DNA of 64,000 bases from an uncultured Gammaproteobacteria bacterium. Lineage in GTDB: Bacteria; Patescibacteriota; Patescibacteriia; UBA11705; DATKZF01. Where the stretch lies: positions 92,439 through 156,438 of the forward strand of contig CAYPKD010000003.1 in assembly GCA_964411255.1 (NCBI GenBank). Reading direction: 5' to 3'. This document shows, piece after piece, positions 5,510-60,096 of this stretch (within the stretch, counting starts at the first letter, position 1; each line of letters starts with the position of its first letter). The notes below the pieces were generated by a model. It did not search any database. It worked only from the letters and a program-made list of their open reading frames with translations, and was not told the DNA's origin. The position numbers and the translations under genes are program-made.

Positions 5510-5596
5510 TGGTGCCGGCGGACGGAGTCGAACCGTCACGGATTTTCATCCACAGGATTTTAAGTCCTGCGTGTCTACCAATTCCACCACGCCGGC
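5510..5596 (-). tRNA. tRNA-Leu(UAA), type II with long variable arm, CCA encoded
   Basis: Hand fold: acceptor GCCGGCG/CGCCGGC, anticodon stem CAGGA/TCCTG with loop CTTAAAA, T-arm GACGG-TTCGACT-CCGTC, discriminator A, CCA. Confidence 0.85.
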
Positions 5597-5609
5597 CTAC
5601 GCTTTCGCC

Positions 5610-5725
5610 TTACTCAAGCTTCGGCCGACAGGCCGGCCAAAGCGTAAACTTTACTCAAGCTTCGGCCGACAGGCCGGCCAAAGCGTAAACTTTACTCAAG
5701 CTTCGGCCGACAGGCCGGCTAAAGC
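5610..5725. repeat. Tandem 41-bp repeat, about 2.8 copies, between tRNA-Leu and tRNA-Gly
   Basis: The unit ttactcaagcttcggccgacaggccggccaaagcgtaaact is repeated head-to-tail and contains a cggcc-gaca-ggccg hairpin. A related motif lies in the tRNA-Gly 5' leader (5886-5945). Confidence 0.8.
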
Positions 5726-6686: not shown

Positions 6687-6772
6687 TGGTGCTGGGAGAG
6701 GGACTCGAACCCTCACGGCATTGAGCCAGGGGATTTTAAGTCCCCTGTGTCTACCAATTCCACCATCCCAGC
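6687..6772 (-). tRNA. tRNA-Leu(UAA), second divergent copy, type II, CCA encoded
   Basis: Hand fold: acceptor GCTGGGA/TCCCAGC, anticodon stem GGGGA/TCCCC with loop CTTAAAA, T-arm GAGGG-TTCGAGT-CCCTC. Confidence 0.85.
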
Positions 6773-13284: not shown

Positions 13285-13533
13285 TTAATGACTAGATTTA
13301 ACCAGATTTTCTTTTTCAATTTTCGTTAAACGTTTTATTTGCGCTTCTCTTTTCTGTGCTTCTGATCGGCTGTTAAATTTTTCAAAATAAACAATTTTTA
13401 CAGGTCTTCTATATTTTGTATATTTAGCTCCTTCGCCTTTATTATGCTTTTCTTCTCTAGCTTTAATATTTATACAAGATCCTGTGTATAACGAATTGTC
13501 ATTACATCGGGCAATGTATGTGAAGTATTTCAT
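13285..13533 (-). CDS. GIY-YIG nuclease superfamily protein (UPF0213/YhbQ-like)
   Basis: 82 aa. YIARCNDNSLYTGSCINIKAREEKHNKGEGAKYTKYRRPVKIVYFEKFNSRSEAQKRE matches the small GIY-YIG domain pattern. Confidence 0.75.
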   Translation of the reverse strand: MKYFTYIARCNDNSLYTGSCINIKAREEKHNKGEGAKYTKYRRPVKIVYFEKFNSRSEAQKREAQIKRLTKIEKENLVKSSH

Positions 13534-13614
13534 TTTAATATATAAAAGATTTAATTAATTTGTATCACTATTTATGGCTGTGCTATTCGAAGTTCGCCAA
13601 AGGCGAACGAAGAA

Positions 13615-13690
13615 TGGTGGACCTGACTGGACTTGAACCAGCGACCTCCTCCATGCCATGGAGGCGCTCTACCAACTAAGCTACAGGCCC
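13615..13690 (-). tRNA. tRNA-Ala(GGC) with G3:U70 identity pair
   Basis: Hand fold: GGGCCTG acceptor with G3-T70, anticodon loop ATGGCAT, T-arm GTCGC-TGGTTCAAGTCC region, discriminator A, CCA. Confidence 0.8.
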
Positions 13691-15340: not shown

Positions 15341-16033
15341 TTAGCTCCACTTTTTCTTTTTTATAGCCTTCTCAGCGGCTATTTCCTGAGCTTCCTGCTT
15401 ACTTAATCCTGATCCTTTAGTTACCAATTCTTTTCCCAAATAAACACCTACTTCAAATATTTTAGCATGGTCTGGACCGCTTTCTTTTGATACTTTGTAT
15501 GTTGGTGTAATACCCACTTTTTCCTGGGCAGCTTCCTGGAATTTACTTTTTGGATCCAGATATAGTTGATGTTTCAGAATATATGGCAATTCTGGCAAAA
15601 GTTTTTTTTCTAAAAATTCTTTTGAGGCCTGCCATCCCTGATCCAAATATATTGAGCCAATTAATGATTCAAAGGCATTAGCCAAAATGTACTGGCGCGC
15701 TTTTCCAATATCCTTTGATTCACCTTTGCTTAAATATAAATAAGTTTCAAGGCCAATTCGCTGCGCCAGTTTAGCTAACATTTTACTATTGACTAAACTT
15801 GCCCGCCAATTAGTTAATTCGCCTTCTGGGTTTTCATAATTAAGATAAAGATGTTCAGTCACAACTAATTCAAGGACTGCATCTCCCAAAAATTCCAGCC
15901 TTTCATTATGTCCCAGATGGAAATCAGGATGTTCATTTAAGTAAGAACGATGGACTAGTGCTTGTTCCAGTAAGTCCATGTTTTCAAATTTAACCCCTAT
16001 TTTCTTTTCTAATTTTGAAAAATCTTTTTTCAT
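15341..16033 (-). CDS. rnc: Ribonuclease III
   Basis: 230 aa with the ERLEFLGDAVLELVVTEHLY RNase III signature and a C-terminal dsRBD. Confidence 0.9.
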   Translation of the reverse strand: MKKDFSKLEKKIGVKFENMDLLEQALVHRSYLNEHPDFHLGHNERLEFLGDAVLELVVTEHLYLNYENPEGELTNWRASLVNSKMLAKLAQRIGLETYLYLSKGESKDIGKARQYILANAFESLIGSIYLDQGWQASKEFLEKKLLPELPYILKHQLYLDPKSKFQEAAQEKVGITPTYKVSKESGPDHAKIFEVGVYLGKELVTKGSGLSKQEAQEIAAEKAIKKKKWS

Positions 16034-18782: not shown

Positions 18783-20231
18783 TTGTTTTTAATGTTATTT
18801 ATGACTTTGACAAACATTGGATATTATGATAAATTTGAAATCACAATCAAAGGAAAAAACCATATAGCAACATTAACCATAAAAAAATACTTAGTTAAGC
18901 TGTTTTTAGGGATTTGCGATAAATTAGCTGTTTTTGGTAAATATATGAAAAAAGGCTTGATATATATTTCAAGACCTTTTGTGCGCGCAGGCAAATTCAT
19001 ATTCAAGTTTGTAATATTATCATTTTACAAGCTTTATTTATTTTTAAAGAAAAGGCTTCAGGTTTTTTATTTACCAGCTAAAAGCCGGGTGTTTTCATTT
19101 TTTTCAAAAAAATATTTAATCCATTTTGCAATAATAATCATTTCTTTTTTGGTTGTGGTGAACAGTATTAGTGCCAAAGAAATACGGGATGAGGATTTTG
19201 GCGAGCAGACCATAATTTATGCCATGTATAATGAAAAAACTCTGGGCGCTATCGAGGAAGTGGTTGTTAAAGACAGCCAGACAAAGATCTTAAGCTATCT
19301 GGACAAATCAGCGGTTTCCAGCAAGCCAACAATAGTTCCTGACAATAAAACTGAAGATGTGACAGAAGATCAAATCGCTGATAGCCTGGCAGCTGTTACT
19401 CAAGGGGGCGCTACTTTGGTAAAGCCAAATATTACTGAAACCAAAATTGCCAAAAGACCAAGAGAAGAAATTATTTCTTACGCAGTTAAAGAAGGCGATA
19501 CTTTAAGCATGATTGCTGAACAATTTGGCGTTTCGACCACTACTATTTTGTGGGAGAATAATTTATCAGAGAACAGCACTATTAAACCTGGTGATACTTT
19601 AAGCATTTTGCCAATAACCGGTCTGACTCATACTGTAAAATCAGGCGATGCTCTTAGCAAGATTGCTACTCGTTATGATGTTGAGACAGATAAAATTATT
19701 GAATTTAATAAATTAGCTAATGCAGAAGATATTCAGGAAGATCAGATTTTAGTCGTTCCTGGAGGTACAATGCCGATTGCCATTGCAAAAAAGACGACTT
19801 ATACCCGAAGTAATGTTAGTATTGCTCCAATTAAAAATTTAGTTGCTCCGCCAGGTGCGCCAACCATCCCAAGCGGTAAAATGGTTTGGCCAACTAATGG
19901 TCACAGAATAACGCAATATTATAGTTGGCGGCATAAAGGTTTAGACATCGACGGTGATTATAGCTCTCCGCTTTATGCAGCAGAAGCTGGAACTGTGGTT
20001 AAGGCTGGCTGGGGTACTGGTTATGGTAATGTAATTTATATTAATCATGGAAACGGCGTACAGACGCGTTATGCTCACATGAGTAAGTTTTTTGTATCAA
20101 ACGGGCAGCGAGTCTCTAAGGGACAGACTTTGGGCATGATGGGATCAACTGGCTGGTCAACTGGTACTCATATTCACTTTGAGGTCAGAATTAATGGTAC
20201 GCCAATGAATCCGTTGAGTTATATTAGATAA
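18783..20231 (+). CDS. LysM-domain M23 family peptidoglycan endopeptidase
   Basis: Two LysM repeats (GDTLSMIAEQFGVS.., GDALSKIATRYDVE..) and C-terminal M23 motifs HKGLDIDG and GTHIHFEV. The start is uncertain and may be the internal MKKGLIYI near 18946 ahead of a signal/TM segment. Confidence 0.8.
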   Translation: MFLMLFMTLTNIGYYDKFEITIKGKNHIATLTIKKYLVKLFLGICDKLAVFGKYMKKGLIYISRPFVRAGKFIFKFVILSFYKLYLFLKKRLQVFYLPAKSRVFSFFSKKYLIHFAIIIISFLVVVNSISAKEIRDEDFGEQTIIYAMYNEKTLGAIEEVVVKDSQTKILSYLDKSAVSSKPTIVPDNKTEDVTEDQIADSLAAVTQGGATLVKPNITETKIAKRPREEIISYAVKEGDTLSMIAEQFGVSTTTILWENNLSENSTIKPGDTLSILPITGLTHTVKSGDALSKIATRYDVETDKIIEFNKLANAEDIQEDQILVVPGGTMPIAIAKKTTYTRSNVSIAPIKNLVAPPGAPTIPSGKMVWPTNGHRITQYYSWRHKGLDIDGDYSSPLYAAEAGTVVKAGWGTGYGNVIYINHGNGVQTRYAHMSKFFVSNGQRVSKGQTLGMMGSTGWSTGTHIHFEVRINGTPMNPLSYIR

Positions 20232-20302
20232 AAAAAGTAAAAATTAAAAAGCTGGCAAAGTGCTGGTTTTTTTGATTCAATGAATTAAGGTTTATTGCTT
20301 AT

Positions 20303-20330
20303 TGACTTTTTGGATATTATATGATATAAT
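20303..20330 (+). promoter_or_regulatory. Sigma-70-like promoter for the GC-rich island ORF
   Basis: -35 TTGACT (20303-20308), 16-nt spacer, -10 TATAAT (20325-20330). Confidence 0.5.
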
Positions 20331-20334
20331 AAAA

Positions 20335-20426
20335 TACTAGTGAAAGTCGCTAGTATTTAATTAATTGCGTTGCGTCTAGACAGCTTAGTCCTGTCGCATG
20401 GACGCACAGACACAAGGAGGTTCGTC
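20335..20426 (+). promoter_or_regulatory. Structured GC-rich 5' UTR with two hairpins, ending in SD AAGGAGG
   Basis: Hairpin 1 is atactag-tgaaagtcg-ctagtat. The second structure is nested: tgcgtc..gacag-cttagtc-ctgtc..gacgca. SD AAGGAGG sits 6 nt before the ATG at 20427. Confidence 0.5.
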
Positions 20427-21146
20427 ATGACACGCCAAAAAGGAATGTGTCGCCCTGACGAATGGGAGCTCAAGCTCCGAAGGCAGTGTGACGAGTTGAT
20501 TCGTCGTTCAATGCGAGGCAGTGCAACATTTGGCTGGGAGGAAACTTCCGAGCGATTGCAGCGGTTGATTGCCCCACCTAGGAGGCCAACAGCTGAGGAA
20601 TTGTCCAAACTGGCTTCTCTGCGGCTTGCTCAGATGGATCGGTTCTTCAGTGAAATTCTGAAACTGGATATTGAAATTCCTGATCCGTCTGCTTCTGGTC
20701 GTCAGATCCGGCGGTACCAGCGTGAAGGCTGGGAACTTTTTTGCCGGCCAATTGACCATCTCAGTTTCATGAAGGCTCTTTGGGCTCGCTTCGAGAGCAT
20801 TAAACCCGGTTATGAGATGGAAGAACCGTTTTGTCATCGGATCAAGTGGGCTGATTTTACCAAACCATATTGGTTTTGGTATCGGACATTTGATCCGCAT
20901 GGGGATGCTGGACCAAAGCAGCTTCGCGAGATAGGCGGAAAGGAACGTGACCCACACTTGGAAGAGTACAAGATCGCCTATCATTACCAAGCCCTGAAAG
21001 GCAAGGAGATGCATTTGGCAAGCACAAACCTTTTGACATTTATTGCCATTGAGGGCGGATTCAATCGCATGGAAGCAACTGGCCACAGGATTTGTCAGCA
21101 TCCGCAGTCGATTGATTCTGAAAGAATTACCCAGCTGACTTCTTAG
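20427..21146 (+). CDS. Hypothetical protein encoded in a GC-rich, codon-atypical island (239 aa)
   Basis: About 52-55% GC versus about 30% in the flanks. Uses CTG/CGG/CAG codons where the host prefers TTA/AGA/CAA. Strong SD and ATG. No family recognised (Trp/Arg-rich). Confidence 0.55.
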   Translation: MTRQKGMCRPDEWELKLRRQCDELIRRSMRGSATFGWEETSERLQRLIAPPRRPTAEELSKLASLRLAQMDRFFSEILKLDIEIPDPSASGRQIRRYQREGWELFCRPIDHLSFMKALWARFESIKPGYEMEEPFCHRIKWADFTKPYWFWYRTFDPHGDAGPKQLREIGGKERDPHLEEYKIAYHYQALKGKEMHLASTNLLTFIAIEGGFNRMEATGHRICQHPQSIDSERITQLTS

Positions 21147-21157
21147 ACTAATCTTTG

Positions 21158-21190
21158 CCCCGCATTGCATTACAATGCGGGTATTTTATT
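21158..21190 (+). terminator. Strong intrinsic terminator after the island ORF
   Basis: ccccgcattg-cat-tacaatgcgggg followed by tattttattttt. Confidence 0.7.
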
Positions 21191-21309
21191 TTTAAAATTT
21201 AAAAACCACGGCCCTTATTTTACTAGATTCCCGATCGAGGTCAGGAATGACGTAATGGGCAGCGGTCTTATAATAGTCGTTATAATCAATAGATTACATG
21301 ATCTATGAT

Positions 21310-22824
21310 TCAGGATTTAGGACGATACTGTAAAGCCTCAGCCACATGTTGAACATCAAGGTTGTATTTATGATCTAGGTCAGCAATGGTTCTGGCCAGT
21401 TTTAGAATTCTATGGTAGGAGCGGGGAGAAAGATGCATTTGTTTCACTGCTGATTTCATTATATCTAAACATTTATCATCCAGTTTACAAAATTCTTTAA
21501 TTTCCTGAGTACGCATTTCAGCATTAAAATTAATTGGCAAGTCTGAAAATCTTTTTCGTTGAATGTTTGCCGACTCAATTACCCGAGTTCTAATATTATT
21601 TGACAATTCTCCCCCATCTTCAGATTGAAGCTTTTCAAATTTAACTCTGGGAACTTCTAAATGAATATCAATGCGGTCAAGGATTGGGCCGGAAATCTTT
21701 TTTTGATATTGAATAATCTGTGCTGCTGAACAGGTGCATGGTTTTTCCGGATCATTATGATAGCCGCAGGGGCAGGGATTTTGGCTGGCAATCATCATAA
21801 ATCTTGCTGGATAGGCAATTGTGCCTTGCGCTCTGGAAATAGAGATTACCCCGTCTTCTAGGGGCTGCCGTAGGTTTTCCAAAACGCTTCTGGGAAACTC
21901 TGGCAGTTCATCTAAAAATAAGACACCGCGGTGGGCTAAAGAAATCTCTCCTGGCTTTGGAAACTTGCCACCGCCGACCAGGGCCACGCCTGAAGAAGTA
22001 TGATGGGGAGAGCGAAAAGGCCTTTTTGAAATTAATGGATTTTTTTCAGGTAAGATACCGGCAATTGAATACATTTTAGTTACTTCTAAAATTTCTTCAT
22101 TGGTCATTTGAGGCAAAATTGATGGCAATGTCTTTGCTAATAATGTTTTGCCAGAACCTGGTGGGCCGCTCATCAAGACATTATGCGCGCCTGAGGCAGC
22201 GATTTCCAATGCGCGTTTAGCATGTTCCTGACCTTTAACATAAGCCATATCAACATCAAAAGTTTCCTTTTCATCTAAATCATCCAATAAATTTTTGTCT
22301 AAAGGGTTGATTTGTTCAAGGCCAGTTAAATGCCTGAACAGTTGATCTAGATTTTGTACTGGATAAATTTCAATTTCAGTGATTAAGCTGGCTTCCTGGG
22401 CATTAATGGCTGGGATAAAAAGTTTTTTAAAATTATTTTCTTTGGCAAAAATAGCCACTGGCAAAATGCCGTTTGTATGGCGAAGTTGGCCGTCCAGAGC
22501 TAATTCTCCAACAAATAGACTGTCAGAGATGTCATCTGTGATTTGTTCTGATGCTTTTAAAATACTGACAGCCATTGGCATGTCATAGGACGGACCTTCT
22601 TTTTTAATATCAGCTGGCGCCAGATTAACAGTTACTTTATGTTTTGGGAATTCTATATCACTGTTTCGAAATGCTAAAAAAACTCTTTCGCGAGCTTCTT
22701 GGACAGCCATGTCTGGTAGGCCGACAATTTTAAATTTTCTCACCTGACTGGAAATGGCAGTTTCCACTTCTACCAGCTGGCAATCAAGGCCGAGCACAGC
22801 ACAGGAGTTTATTTTACTGTACAT
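21310..22824 (-). CDS. comM: YifB/ComM family Mg-chelatase-like AAA+ ATPase
   Basis: Walker A GPPGSGKT, sensor and Mg-chelatase C-terminal regions. The start was moved to the internal MYSKINSCAVLGL typical of the family. Confidence 0.85.
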   Translation of the reverse strand: MYSKINSCAVLGLDCQLVEVETAISSQVRKFKIVGLPDMAVQEARERVFLAFRNSDIEFPKHKVTVNLAPADIKKEGPSYDMPMAVSILKASEQITDDISDSLFVGELALDGQLRHTNGILPVAIFAKENNFKKLFIPAINAQEASLITEIEIYPVQNLDQLFRHLTGLEQINPLDKNLLDDLDEKETFDVDMAYVKGQEHAKRALEIAASGAHNVLMSGPPGSGKTLLAKTLPSILPQMTNEEILEVTKMYSIAGILPEKNPLISKRPFRSPHHTSSGVALVGGGKFPKPGEISLAHRGVLFLDELPEFPRSVLENLRQPLEDGVISISRAQGTIAYPARFMMIASQNPCPCGYHNDPEKPCTCSAAQIIQYQKKISGPILDRIDIHLEVPRVKFEKLQSEDGGELSNNIRTRVIESANIQRKRFSDLPINFNAEMRTQEIKEFCKLDDKCLDIMKSAVKQMHLSPRSYHRILKLARTIADLDHKYNLDVQHVAEALQYRPKS

Positions 22825-22962
22825 ATTTTGATAGTGCGACGAGCAAGACAAGTTTTCGGATGCTTGTGGCACTTGTCGCATCAGTCTTGCTGGTCGTACT
22901 GGTTATATCAATTTATCATTTACCAGTGAAATTAGCAAATAAAAAAAATCCTGATTATTGAA

Positions 22963-58393: not shown

Positions 58394-58732
58394 GTAATAA
58401 CTTGCTGGGTTTTTAATTTTAAAAAGCTCAGATGAGCTTCTTTTGTGAAAATTTTACTGCCCTTTGCGTCATTCCCGCGCAGGCGGGAATCTATGAATTG
58501 TATTGTATGAAGCAAAGCAGTAAAATTTTATGCCACTGCAATAAATTGATGAGATCCCCGATCAGGTCGGGGATGACGACCGGGCTGCGGTATCTATTAA
58601 TTATTCGTTTATTTATCAGATTCAATTTTTTTATTATCAGTCTTTTCTGGCTGATGCGGTCTGGAACCCAAAACAGAAGCCATCACCATTGCCCAGGCAA
58701 TAATAATGCTTTTGAAGAATTTAAGTATTTTT

Positions 58733-60040
58733 TTAAGAAATCGTGACATTATTTTTTAGAAACTCAATTACTTTTTTATTAGCAATTAAATTTTCAAAAT
58801 ATCTGCGCGCGTTTTCAGTCTTAATATTTTTTTCAAGCTGATCAAGTTGATTTTGATATTGAGGCTGAAGTTTATATGATGCTAAGGTTTTTTCCTGTTC
58901 TTCATCAATTTCTTTTTTTGTTGCCTTTAGTTCTTCTTTTTTAGCGATCGCCCTGATAGAAAGAGCTGTTTTTACGCGCTTTAGGGCATCAGCTGAAAAT
59001 TCCAAACGCATTTCTGCTTCTGATTTTTTTAGGTGATTTAAGTATTGCTGAAAATCCAATCCTTGTCTGGTTACATTATCTTCTAATTCATGAAGCATTT
59101 TGTGAGTTTCCTCATCAACCAGAATATCAGGAATTTCTTCAAACGTAGCTTTTTCAATAAGTTGTTCAATGATTTCAAATTCTTGCTTTTGAACTGCCTT
59201 TGCCTTTTTTTCATCCTCTAAATTTTTCTTAATTTGATTTTTTAAAGCTTCAACGGTCGGTACGCCCATGCCTTTGGCAAATTCTTCTGTTATTTCTGGC
59301 AAATCAATTTGATAAACAGCTAAAAGTTTGACTTTAAATTTTGCTAATTTGCCAGCAATTGTTTTTTGATGATAGTCTTTTGGGAATTCCAGATCAAATT
59401 CTTTTTCTTCATCTTTTTTCATGCCAATAATTTGTTCCTCAAAACCTGGAATCATTTTTTTATCCCCAATTACTAATGGATATTTTTTTGCCTCTCCGCC
59501 TTCAATCGGTACTTTATCTACACAAGTATTAAAATCAACCTCAACCCGATCGCGCTCTTTTACTTCTCGATCTACTAAGGTTTCTTTGGCTCGCATTTTT
59601 TTCAAGTCAGCTAAAACTTTTTCAATTTCAGAGTCTTCAATTTTAATTTCCTCAAGTTTTTTTGCCTTGATTTTTTTATACTCTGGCAATTCTACGCTAG
59701 GTAAAAGTGATACAGTTGCTTTGAATATAAAAGGATTTTTTGGAGCCATTTTTACAATATCAATTTTAGGCTGTTCAACTGTTTCAAAATTTTCCTGTTC
59801 AATTGCTTTATAATAATTTTCTGCAATCATGTCTTGTGACGCATTTTGATAAAGAGCCATTTCTCCAAATTGCCTCACTACAGTATCAAAAGGAGCTTTG
59901 CCTGGGCGAAAGCCTTTGATTGGTTTATCTTCAGATAGTCTTTCTGCAGCTTTTTCCAAATATGGCTTTACTTCCTTCTCAGACAGCTCAATAATTAATT
60001 CAATTTGTTTTTTAGGTAGTTCTTTTTTTGTAATATTCAT
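58733..60040 (-). CDS. tig: Trigger factor
   Basis: Ribosome-binding N-domain with GFRPGKAPFD (the FRxGxxP motif), a PPIase-like middle and a C-terminal domain. Start placed at the internal MNITKK. Confidence 0.85.
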   Translation of the reverse strand: MNITKKELPKKQIELIIELSEKEVKPYLEKAAERLSEDKPIKGFRPGKAPFDTVVRQFGEMALYQNASQDMIAENYYKAIEQENFETVEQPKIDIVKMAPKNPFIFKATVSLLPSVELPEYKKIKAKKLEEIKIEDSEIEKVLADLKKMRAKETLVDREVKERDRVEVDFNTCVDKVPIEGGEAKKYPLVIGDKKMIPGFEEQIIGMKKDEEKEFDLEFPKDYHQKTIAGKLAKFKVKLLAVYQIDLPEITEEFAKGMGVPTVEALKNQIKKNLEDEKKAKAVQKQEFEIIEQLIEKATFEEIPDILVDEETHKMLHELEDNVTRQGLDFQQYLNHLKKSEAEMRLEFSADALKRVKTALSIRAIAKKEELKATKKEIDEEQEKTLASYKLQPQYQNQLDQLEKNIKTENARRYFENLIANKKVIEFLKNNVTIS

Positions 60041-60053
60041 ATTAATGTTTGGG

Positions 60054-60096
60054 AAAAACAGATCAACGGATGGCAATAGATGAAACAGATATTAGA
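60054..60096 (-). promoter_or_regulatory. Conserved 40-nt ATCTGTT-heptamer element in the tig 5' region (copy B)
   Basis: aaaaacagatcaacggatggcaatagatgaaacagatattag. A partial inverted copy lies at 60117-60140. Confidence 0.55.

What the first reader, a model, noticed from the sequence alone, without database searches (positions are those of the whole stretch)
20300..21200. Roughly 0.85 kb GC-rich island with host-atypical codon usage carrying a single promoter-to-terminator ORF of unknown function
Seen in sequence: between the M23 peptidase gene and comM the composition jumps to about 52-55% GC over about 850 bp. Flanks revert to about 30% GC immediately. The island contains a consensus-like promoter (TTGACT-16-TATAAT), a roughly 90-nt 5' UTR with two GC-rich hairpins (one nested), an AAGGAGG SD, and a 239-aa ORF (20427-21146). 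The ORF uses CTG/CGG/CAG/GAG-type codons where surrounding genes use TTA/AGA/CAA/GAA. A 10-bp-stem terminator (ccccgcattg..caatgcgggg plus T tract) follows. The protein is Trp/Arg/Glu-rich with no motif I can assign. The opposite-strand 220-aa ORF is low-complexity and is judged an artefact of GC-richness. Inference: a recently acquired foreign gene (phage, plasmid or another phylum) retaining its own expression signals. The structured UTR suggests post-transcriptional control.
Basis: partly seen in the sequence, partly recalled or inferred. Interest (0 to 1): 0.7.

Follow-up and report, generated by a model that had tools for sequence, protein, structure and literature searches.

The report
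Orphan Patescibacteria gene with conserved RNA leader
The GC-rich island is a real, self-contained gene of an uncharacterised protein family found only in Patescibacteria. It was inserted long ago between two neighbouring housekeeping genes, and it carries a previously undescribed, evolutionarily conserved RNA hairpin just in front of its ribosome-binding site.

Summary
The island is real. ORF 20427-21146 has 49.6% GC against 33.2% for the window, the highest value in the 64 kb. Its GC3 is 0.50 against 0.25±0.05 for 59 other genes.

It codes for a protein. dN/dS is 0.15 against a 59%-identical homologue, and the AlphaFold model is confident (pLDDT 83). It is not an assembly chimera.

The family has about 55 clusters, and every named one is from Patescibacteria. 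It has no match in Pfam, NCBIfam, PHROGs, PADLOC, the PDB, BFVD, phages or plasmids.

In at least five relatives the M23 and comM genes are directly adjacent, so the cassette is an insertion. It is not a recent one. Two other genomes carry it next to comM, and synonymous sites are saturated in both genes. All 12 family loci examined are GC-richer than their hosts, so the excess GC is a maintained family trait.

Every locus examined upstream has a strong promoter, a leader of about 90-150 nt and a conserved hairpin B next to the ribosome-binding site; all with downstream sequence also have a terminator. In hairpin B, 97% of pair cells are paired and 8 of 11 pairs show compensatory changes. It is absent from Rfam.

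My best reading is an accessory gene under translational control through hairpin B, possibly by its own arginine-rich protein. What the protein does is unknown.

The parts
18783..20231 (+). LysM/M23 peptidase gene. Ancestral left neighbour, shown for context.
   Evidence: Pfam Peptidase_M23 at 5.6e-35 and LysM at 2.9e-24. It is directly convergent with comM in L008, L009, L012, L013 and L015.
20249..20277 (+). Terminator-like hairpin plus T7 run ending the M23 transcript. Marks the left edge of the inserted segment.
   Evidence: Read from the sequence: agctggcaaagtgctggttttttt. It was not called by the consensus scan, because the stem has G-U pairs.
20302..20330 (+). Sigma-70-type promoter, TTGACT-17 nt-TATAAT, with a TG extended -10.
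   Evidence: 11 of 12 matches, TG present. An equivalent TTGAC(A/T)-16/17-TAnnnT promoter (a TG extended -10 in most) is found by pattern upstream of 11 of the 12 family members examined; in L023 one was only placed by eye.
20332..20358 (+). Hairpin A, a stem-loop at or next to the transcript 5' end (12 bp; 7 bp if transcription starts near 20337).
   Evidence: RNAfold. L018 keeps it through A-to-G changes on both arms that give G·U pairs. L001 has an unrelated sequence that folds at the same place. RNAalifold recovers a hairpin A core in 8 main-group leaders.
20371..20406 (+). Hairpin B, a conserved two-tier hairpin. Outer stem UGCGUC/GACGCA, 5' bulge UA, inner stem GACAG/CUGUC, 3' bulge GCAUG. 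It ends 20 nt before the AUG.
   Evidence: Covariation on MAFFT alignment A7: 97% of cells paired, 8 of 11 pairs changed on both sides, slid controls 17-48% paired. Model R1 scores 36.2 bits and E = 3.9e-7 here, with no other copy in the window with filters off. One copy per family locus. No Rfam match.
20414..20420 (+). Shine-Dalgarno AAGGAGG, 6 nt before the ATG.
   Evidence: Sequence. A GGAGG-like SD followed by ...GTCATG is shared by 10 of 12 family loci.
20427..21146 (+). Protein-coding gene 'X', 239 aa. It is Arg/Glu/Trp-rich, contains no Val, and has no signal peptide.
   Evidence: dN/dS 0.146; differences by codon position 0.32/0.24/0.50 against L001. Family of 5 representatives in 1.84e9 proteins and about 55 clusters by profile search. 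AlphaFold2 pLDDT 82.9, pTM 0.75. No fold or sequence match anywhere.
21159..21192 (+). Intrinsic terminator: 9-bp stem CCCGCATTG/CAATGCGGG, loop CATTA, then a T-rich tract.
   Evidence: A nearly identical terminator follows the L018 homologue. Terminator-like hairpins follow all other family members that have downstream sequence.
21218..21290 (+). Small repeated hairpin-containing element between the cassette terminator and the comM stop. It is not part of the cassette in L018 or L001.
   Evidence: A second copy lies at 58540-58610, with a core of about 60 nt at about 80% identity. An inverted partial copy lies at 58468-58491.
21310..22881 (-). comM (Mg-chelatase-like AAA+ competence helicase). 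Ancestral right neighbour, shown for context.
   Evidence: Pfam Mg_chelatase 1.1e-94, plus ChlI and Mg_chelatase_C. 77% identical to comM in L001 and 84% to comM in L018.

Best explanation
SHOWN.
- The island is a compact expression cassette of about 0.9 kb. It runs: extended -10 promoter, leader of about 90 nt, strong SD, 239-aa ORF, intrinsic terminator.
- It encodes a genuine, selectively constrained cytoplasmic protein. The family of about 250-aa proteins is uncharacterised, known only from Patescibacteria, and its predicted fold has no recognisable relative.
- The cassette was inserted between the ancestrally adjacent, convergent M23-peptidase and comM genes. This happened in the ancestor of a small clade (the window genome, L001, L018), and it has stayed there long enough for synonymous sites to saturate.
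- Its high GC and GC3 are a property of the whole family, relative to whatever host carries it. They are not the scar of a recent transfer.
- All 12 leaders examined share hairpin B, a two-tier hairpin supported by covariation. It ends 14-24 nt before the start codon in 10 loci. In the other two an extra inserted hairpin lengthens the spacing.

INFERRED.
- Hairpin B is a translational operator. A factor bound there would overlap the 30S footprint and repress initiation.
- The most economical candidate for that factor is protein X itself. X has two arginine-rich helices (LRRQCDELIRR and GRQIRRYQRE), and the RNA is found only with the gene. That would give a host-independent autoregulatory loop.
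- Hairpin A at the 5' end, the strong terminator and the GC-rich, over-structured coding region would together make a stable mRNA.
- The biochemical activity of X is not known. Its rarity, fast evolution (dN 2-4 times that of comM) and lack of a conserved partner gene suggest an accessory or conflict-type function, not a core one.
For: - Coding: dN/dS 0.146, 67 synonymous codon changes, third-position excess. Family alignment down to about 20% identity. AlphaFold2 pLDDT 82.9.
- Not a chimera: the ENA and Logan assemblies are 100% identical across both junctions.
- Insertion: M23 and comM are adjacent in 5 relatives, with no X within ±8 kb.
- Old: X lies next to comM in L018 and L001. dS is saturated for both X and comM. 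Promoter plus leader is 79% identical between the window and L018, whereas 42% of identical-amino-acid codons differ.
- Family-wide GC excess: 12 of 12 loci. It is not highly-expressed-gene codon bias, since rpsO has GC3 0.136.
- Leader: covariation; an independent RNAalifold prediction; model R1 finds exactly one copy per family locus and none elsewhere in 258 kb or in the window with filters off; spacing to the AUG.
- mRNA structure: the whole transcript has z = -4.35. X ORFs against synonymous-codon shuffles give mean z -1.93, against -0.47 for 16 neighbouring genes, p = 0.015.
- No known family.
Against: - There is no direct evidence that X binds RNA, or that hairpin B regulates anything.
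- In the window's own minimum-free-energy fold the SD is unpaired, and no alternative SD-sequestering structure is evident.
- The unpaired nucleotides of hairpin B are only moderately conserved (3' bulge RCAUR in 8 of 12 loci).
- The mRNA-folding signal is modest. Three X ORFs have z near 0 and two control genes reach z below -2.6.
- 'Old insertion' assumes one event. Three independent insertions next to comM, or transfer among the three lineages by homologous recombination, are not excluded.
- Only ±8 kb of each relative was inspected, so X may exist elsewhere in those genomes.
- AFDB fold libraries could not be searched.
Confidence: 0.55

Rival explanations
1. One reading: a recently acquired foreign gene from a phage, a plasmid or another phylum. 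Its GC and codon usage still reflect the donor.
For: It is an insertion relative to 5 relatives. Its composition is strongly atypical, z about 5. It has its own promoter and terminator. Family members sit in different genomic contexts.
Against: Two other genomes carry it at the same comM-proximal position, with saturated synonymous divergence. No phage, plasmid or viral-contig homologue exists, and no PHROG family matches. All named homologues are Patescibacteria. GC excess over the host is seen in all 12 loci, including hosts of 56-59% GC. No integrase, tRNA attachment site or flanking repeats are present.
Confidence: 0.1
2. Hairpin B is recognised by something other than X. Candidates are a small-molecule ligand (a riboswitch-like element), a host RNA-binding protein, an RNase such as RNase III, or a trans-acting sRNA. 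Under this view X is simply the regulated cargo.
For: The conserved structure lies adjacent to the RBS. The stems are conserved in sequence beyond what pairing needs, and the 3' bulge is RCAUR. An RNase III gene is present in the window at 15341-16033.
Against: At 31-37 nt with a variable loop (UNCG tetraloops in several members), it is small for an aptamer. The motif occurs nowhere else in the window or in 258 kb of related loci, so it does not define a regulon. A cassette found in hosts of 33-59% GC would have to depend on a factor conserved across all those hosts.
Confidence: 0.22
3. The leader hairpins have no regulatory role. They only protect the mRNA from 5'-end-dependent decay, and the cassette is expressed constitutively.
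For: Hairpin A sits at the predicted 5' end, and its sequence is free to vary as long as it folds. The SD is unpaired in the minimum-free-energy fold. The whole mRNA is over-structured.
Against: A purely protective role does not explain the conserved two-tier geometry, the conserved stem sequences or the fixed spacing of hairpin B to the AUG across proteins only 20-25% identical.
Confidence: 0.15
4. The inverted repeats of hairpin B act at the DNA level, as an operator for a dimeric DNA-binding repressor (possibly X) sitting downstream of the promoter.
For: The element is a palindrome within a palindrome, GGTGTC..GACGC..GCGTC..GACACC, at +35 to +70.
Against: Seven of the non-Watson-Crick cells are G·U, which is tolerated only in RNA of the + strand. 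Only four are other mismatches. The asymmetric bulges are conserved. The reverse strand scores 13 bits against 36.
Confidence: 0.06
5. The GC-rich segment is a structured non-coding RNA, or an assembly artefact, and the ORF is a by-product of GC richness.
For: GC-rich islands in AT-rich genomes are often RNA genes (my own knowledge). Both strands carry long ORFs. The transcript folds with z = -4.35.
Against: dN/dS is 0.15 with codon-position periodicity. A protein family is detectable at 20-30% identity. The AlphaFold2 model is confident. There is no Rfam hit. The antisense ORF is not conserved. Independent assemblies are identical.
Confidence: 0.02

Closest known systems
Autoregulatory mRNA leaders and translational operators: ribosomal-protein leaders (S15, L20, L1), the thrS operator, the MS2/Qβ coat-protein operator hairpin
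   Same: A conserved hairpin with an internal loop or bulge lies immediately upstream of the RBS of the gene it travels with. It shows covariation across distant homologues and occurs once per gene.
   Different: No sequence or structure match to any Rfam leader. The protein is not a ribosomal protein, a synthetase or a coat protein. Binding has not been shown.
Phage 'morons': autonomous promoter-gene-terminator units inserted between two genes, often with deviating GC (Juhala/Hendrix, from my own knowledge)
   Same: A single gene flanked by its own sigma-70 promoter and intrinsic terminator, inserted between two otherwise adjacent genes, with GC content unlike its surroundings.
   Different: The flanks are chromosomal housekeeping genes, not a prophage. 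No phage homologues exist. The GC deviation persists after long residence.
Arginine-rich-motif peptide-RNA hairpin systems (λ/P22 N-boxB, HIV Rev-RRE)
   Same: Arginine-rich helices in the protein (LRRQCDELIRR, GRQIRRYQRE), and a small hairpin with an asymmetric internal loop in the RNA.
   Different: This is a resemblance of kind only. There is no homology, no antitermination context, and nothing has been tested.
Type III toxin-antitoxin systems (ToxIN, CptIN)
   Same: A structured RNA of about 36 nt is encoded directly upstream of a stand-alone, sporadically distributed protein gene under one promoter.
   Different: There is a single hairpin, not a tandem repeat array. No terminator separates the RNA from the gene. 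There is no similarity to ToxN/AbiQ and no PADLOC hit.
Classical genomic islands and integrative elements
   Same: Atypical composition, and a presence/absence polymorphism among relatives.
   Different: It is only 0.9 kb and one gene. It has no integrase, no tRNA target (the nearest tRNA is 5 kb away) and no flanking direct repeats.

Membership tests
Any Rfam 15 RNA family (leader or island) | A covariance-model score at or above the family's gathering threshold | tested here: not met
   No hit in 20150-21350 at gathering. The best sub-threshold hits are Hrs10 (28.6 bits against 108) and DUF2693 RNA (24.3 against 81.3). There were 0 hits at E ≤ 0.1 in 10 homologous loci.
Any Pfam, NCBIfam, PHROG or PADLOC protein family | A profile HMM match | tested here: not met
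   0 families for the window protein. Only scattered hits at E > 0.01 appear among 14 members.
Any solved or viral predicted fold | A significant structural match to a confident model | tested here: not met
Phage moron | Own promoter and terminator around a single gene | tested here: met
   The same layout is seen in all family loci with sequence on both sides.
Phage moron | Located within a prophage, between phage genes | tested here: not met
   The neighbours are M23 peptidase, comM, a CYTH protein, a DNA-alkylation repair enzyme, NusB and RNase III. There are no phage hits.
Type III toxin-antitoxin | A tandem array of antitoxin RNA repeats upstream of the toxin gene | tested here: not met
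   No tandem or direct repeats in 20150-21400 beyond chance 10-21-mers. Hairpin B is present once.
Autoregulatory translational operator | A conserved RNA structure next to or overlapping the RBS, co-inherited with the gene | tested here: met
Autoregulatory translational operator | The encoded protein binds its own leader and represses translation | not testable with these tools
   Needs EMSA or a filter-binding assay, plus reporter fusions.
Riboswitch | An aptamer with highly conserved unpaired nucleotides, plus an expression platform with alternative pairing | tested here: inconclusive
   The loop is variable and the bulges are only partly conserved. In several main-group leaders the minimum-free-energy fold pairs a pyrimidine-rich 5' segment with the SD. 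This is not seen in the window.
Genomic island / integrative element | An integrase or recombinase, a tRNA or attachment site, and flanking direct repeats | tested here: not met

The most novel reading that the evidence does not exclude
Protein X and hairpin B together form a self-contained RNA-protein module of a new kind. X would be a novel-fold, arginine-rich RNA-binding protein whose activity (toxic or defensive) is held in check by, or directed at, its own leader hairpin. The cassette would spread among Patescibacteria as a minimal autonomous unit. Its unusually GC-rich, highly structured mRNA would be kept that way by selection, because the RNA itself is part of the mechanism.
Probability: 0.12. 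Interest if true: 0.75.

Novelty: new member of a known kind. Interest (0 to 1): 0.48.

Why it matters
- It removes a false lead. Atypical GC plus an insertion does not mean recent horizontal transfer here. A gene can stay 15-20 GC points above an AT-rich host after synonymous saturation, which is a caution for composition-based island finders in Patescibacteria (candidate phyla radiation) genomes.
- It defines an uncharacterised protein family restricted to Patescibacteria. The structure prediction is confident but unmatched.
- It defines a new cis-regulatory RNA motif supported by covariation and absent from Rfam. Both can be tested directly in vitro.
- If the RNA-protein pairing is real, it would be one of very few regulatory circuits described for this uncultured, host-dependent phylum.

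Tried and rejected
- ncRNA reading: Rfam at gathering and at E-value thresholds on the window and on 10 homologous loci. Rejected on the substitution pattern.
- Antisense 220-aa ORF: not conserved.
- Assembly chimera: rejected, because independent assemblies are identical.
- Phage or plasmid origin: tblastn; IMG/VR scans with two protein alignments and a hairpin B DNA pattern. The 60 pattern matches were all rejected by model R1 and by tblastn.
- Defence-system membership: PADLOC gave nothing.
- Codon bias of highly expressed genes as the cause of the GC3 excess: rejected. rpsO has GC3 0.136 and no other gene exceeds 0.33, apart from a doubtful ORF at 58432.
- Amino-acid composition alone: explains only about half of the excess.
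- Terminal inverted or direct repeats, or target-site duplications, around the cassette: none convincing.
- Conserved partner gene: none. Neighbours differ in every independent locus. A loose tendency to lie near recombination or competence genes (comM, ruvB, ruvA, a PilB-like ATPase) was judged too weak to use.
- K-turn reading of the hairpin B internal loop: it does not fit the consensus (checked by hand only).
- Literature search for a described Patescibacteria leader motif: nothing relevant.
Full report
OBSERVATION

The region between an M23/LysM peptidase gene (18783-20231, +) and comM (21310-22881, -) (Pfam) is the compositional maximum of the 64-kb window.
- ORF 20427-21146 is 49.6% GC, against 33.2% for the window. 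The best 720-bp window starts at 20380.
- Against 59 other ORFs, GC is at z = 5.0 and GC3 at z = 4.7 (0.496 against 0.249±0.052).
Only a single 200-nt window reaches 55%. The flanking genes are 36-40% GC, not 30%.
- About half of the excess is due to the Arg/Glu/Trp/Pro-rich, Lys/Asn/Ile-poor protein. Expected GC with host codons is 40.7%. The other half is synonymous.

The expression signals are present:
- Promoter TTGACT-17-TATAAT with a TG extended -10 (20302-20330), and a terminator at 21159-21181 followed by a T tract.
- SD AAGGAGG at 20414-20420, 6 nt before the ATG.
- Two leader hairpins, with z = -3.2 for the leader.
- Two details differ from the finding. The terminator stem is 9 bp, and the first hairpin is AT-rich.

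IS IT A GENE?

Yes.
- A 59%-identical homologue (P0002, locus L001) gives dN/dS 0.146, differences of 0.32/0.24/0.50 by codon position, and 67 synonymous codon changes.
- An exhaustive phmmer search of 1.84 billion representatives finds 5 relatives. Profile searches find 12 and then about 55 clusters. All are about 230-290 aa, none has a Pfam domain, and the named ones are Candidatus Uhrbacteria or 'Patescibacteria group'.
- AlphaFold2 on a 14-sequence alignment gives pLDDT 82.9 and pTM 0.75. The model has an N-terminal helical part (helices 11-30, 37-48, 56-77, 91-99) and a C-terminal alpha/beta part.
- The antisense 220-aa ORF is broken in both close homologues.
- The ATG at 20427 is the start. 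The 258-aa TTG-start model used by gene callers begins inside the leader hairpin, and that extension is not conserved in L001.
- Two independent assemblies (an ENA contig of 388,698 bp and a Logan assembly of SRR6963311) are 100% identical across both junctions. Misassembly is therefore excluded.

WHAT IS THE PROTEIN?

Unknown.
- No match in Pfam, NCBIfam, PHROGs or PADLOC for any of 14 members.
- No PDB sequence match with single-sequence or profile queries.
- Conserved motifs in the 14-member alignment are L-x2-RRQ-x-DE-x2-RR, IP-x-P-x2-S-x-RE-x-RR, LF-x-RP, YWFW and LEEY-x-I. In the 59-member alignment only W149 stays invariant, with P85, P87 and E179-E180-Y181 (the LEEY core) among the columns at least 90% conserved.
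- The window protein belongs to a divergent three-member branch. That branch lacks the main group's C-terminal GGRAxEVV motif.

HISTORY OF THE LOCUS

A comM-based scan of GTDB species representatives returned 10 Patescibacteria loci.
- In L008, L009, L012, L013 and L015, M23 and comM are directly convergent (gaps about 30-200 bp). L010 and L011 have other, unrelated inserts. None has a homologue of X within ±8 kb. The cassette is therefore an insertion into an ancestral M23-comM junction, and this junction is evidently a permissive site.
- The two closest homologues also lie at the comM 3' end. In L018 the gene is directly adjacent. In L001 an mscS gene lies between.
- Among these three genomes, synonymous sites are saturated in comM and in X alike. 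Between 42% and 52% of identical-amino-acid codons differ, and NG86 dS is 1.4-3.1 or undefined.
- X nevertheless keeps GC3 at 0.50-0.54, next to neighbours at 0.31-0.44.
- Promoter plus leader is 79% identical between the window and L018, and the terminators are nearly identical. Both are better conserved than synonymous sites.
- The simplest reading is one old insertion followed by vertical descent.

The GC excess is family-wide. All 12 loci examined have a higher gene GC than the rest of the contig, for example 58% against 42%, 62% against 41% and 64% against 59%. GC3 exceeds that of the neighbouring genes in the 8 loci where neighbours were scored, apart from one L019 neighbour; for L023-L026 only gene GC3 was measured. 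It is not the codon bias of highly expressed host genes. rpsO in the window has GC3 0.136.

There is no sign of a phage or plasmid source. There is also no integrase, tRNA target or flanking repeats.

Elsewhere in the family the gene sits beside different housekeeping genes: ileS, NUDIX, transketolase/DUF4349, ruvB, FBP aldolase, pfkB and holB. In L019 it splits a transketolase-DUF4349 pair that is intact in L004, where the gene lies elsewhere. Over long times the cassette therefore does relocate.

THE LEADER

Eleven of the 12 upstream regions have a pattern-matched TTGAC(A/T)-16/17-TAnnnT promoter, most with a TG extended -10 (in L023 one was only placed by eye). All 12 have a leader of about 90-150 nt and a GGAGG-type SD, and 10 of them have GTC immediately before the ATG.

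Each leader folds into a 5'-proximal hairpin A and a two-tier hairpin B. Evidence for hairpin B:
- On a purely sequence-based MAFFT alignment of the 12 copies, 97% of the 132 pair cells are standard pairs, against 17-48% when the partner column is slid.
- Eight of the 11 pairs show changes on both sides. Examples are GACGC/GCGUC to GACAG/CUGUC, GACUC/GAGUC and GACAUC/GAUGU, and GGUGUC/GACACC to GGCGUU/AACGCC and UGCGUC/GACGCA.
- No shuffle out of 500 reaches the observed covariation score.
- RNAalifold on eight main-group leaders independently recovers hairpin B and the core of hairpin A.
- A covariance model finds exactly one copy per family locus (35-48 bits). It finds nothing else in 258 kb of related loci, in the window with filters off, or in 60 viral loci.
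- The reverse strand scores 13 bits, and the non-Watson-Crick cells are mostly G·U. This favours RNA over a DNA operator.
- Hairpin B ends 14-24 nt before the AUG in 10 of 12 loci. The two exceptions (32 and 37 nt) carry an extra stable hairpin in the spacer.
- Nothing in Rfam 15 matches.

Hairpin A begins right after the -10. In the window/L018 pair it is maintained through G·U-forming changes. In L001 it is replaced by an unrelated folding sequence. This fits a 5'-terminal stabiliser.

mRNA STRUCTURE

- The whole predicted transcript folds 4.35 sd better than 20 dinucleotide shuffles.
- Against shuffles that permute synonymous codons, X ORFs from 12 loci have a mean z of -1.93. Sixteen neighbouring genes have a mean z of -0.47 (Mann-Whitney p = 0.015).
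- This is suggestive, not decisive. It points to selection on RNA structure or stability as one reason the GC3 is maintained.

MECHANISM (INFERENCE)

A structure conserved this precisely, placed at the 5' edge of the 30S footprint, and found only with this gene is most simply a translational operator. The cassette works in hosts of 33-59% GC. The protein also carries two arginine-rich helices. I therefore favour binding by X itself, as a negative autoregulatory loop of the kind used by ribosomal-protein leaders, thrS and the MS2 coat protein.

Rivals for the leader:
- A ligand or a host factor binds hairpin B.
- The hairpins only stabilise the mRNA.
- The element is a DNA-level operator.

What X does beyond this is not known. 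It is rare, evolves fast (dN 2-4 times that of comM) and has no conserved partner gene. These features suggest an accessory or conflict-type role.

VERDICT

'Foreign and recent' is not supported. 'Own expression signals' and 'post-transcriptional control' are supported.

The result is a new, uncharacterised protein family specific to Patescibacteria, with a new candidate cis-regulatory RNA. It also shows unusual long-term maintenance of high GC in AT-rich hosts. Interest is moderate.

Noticed in passing
window 21218-21290, 58540-58610 and 58468-58491: A small dispersed element containing the hairpin ATYCCCGATC(G)AGGTCRGGRATGAC, followed by about 40 nt of similar sequence. One copy lies between the cassette terminator and comM. 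A second lies at 58.5 kb, where a related hairpin (GTCATTCCCGCGCAGGCGGGAAT) sits in inverted orientation about 60 nt upstream. It could be a MITE-like or REP-like repeat, or a small RNA. It is absent from the homologous positions in L018 and L001.
   Followed up: partly
window 5588-5725: Three tandem copies of a GC-rich 41-bp unit (…CAGGCCGGCCAAAGCGTAAACTTTACTCAAGCTTCGGCCGA…) directly abut tRNA-Leu(TAA) at 5510-5596. This accounts for the second GC peak of the window. tRNA-Leu(TAA) is itself duplicated at 6687-6772.
   Followed up: no
window 20427-21146 and L001 291-1013: The 239-aa protein and its 59%-identical homologue both contain no valine at all, against a host average of 5.2%. The third close homologue (P0003) and the main group do contain Val.
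   Followed up: no
window 20370-20426: Public gene calls (P0001, 258 aa) start this gene at a TTG inside leader hairpin B. The SD-preceded ATG at 20427 is the start shared with L001 and L018.
   Followed up: yes
window 13524-13653 (+): An Rfam hit to HPnc0260 (a Helicobacter antisense RNA) scores 60.5 bits, just above the gathering score of 59. It overlaps, in antisense, the tRNA-Ala at 13615-13690. It is probably a tRNA-driven false positive.
   Followed up: no
L011 9540-10838 and L010 9510-9918: The comM/M23 convergent junction is a variable spot in relatives too. L011 carries a 316-aa low-GC acidic protein plus a 97-aa ORF there, and L010 has a 415-bp spacer.
   Followed up: partly
L018 566-640: The L018 homologue has an internal N-terminal duplication (CRPE-TCRPDEWE…WELTLRRQ; the repeats TGTCGCCCTGA and AATGGGAGC each occur twice) relative to the window protein.
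   Followed up: no
proteins P0030 and P0039: Two different family members are both reported with a longest contig of 44,834 bp from the same sources. This may mean two paralogous copies on one contig.
   Followed up: no
window 58432-58746 (+): This 104-aa ORF has the second-highest GC3 in the window (0.47). It has no Pfam hit, overlaps the repeat element above and overlaps the end of the gene at 58733-60076. It is probably not a gene.
   Followed up: partly
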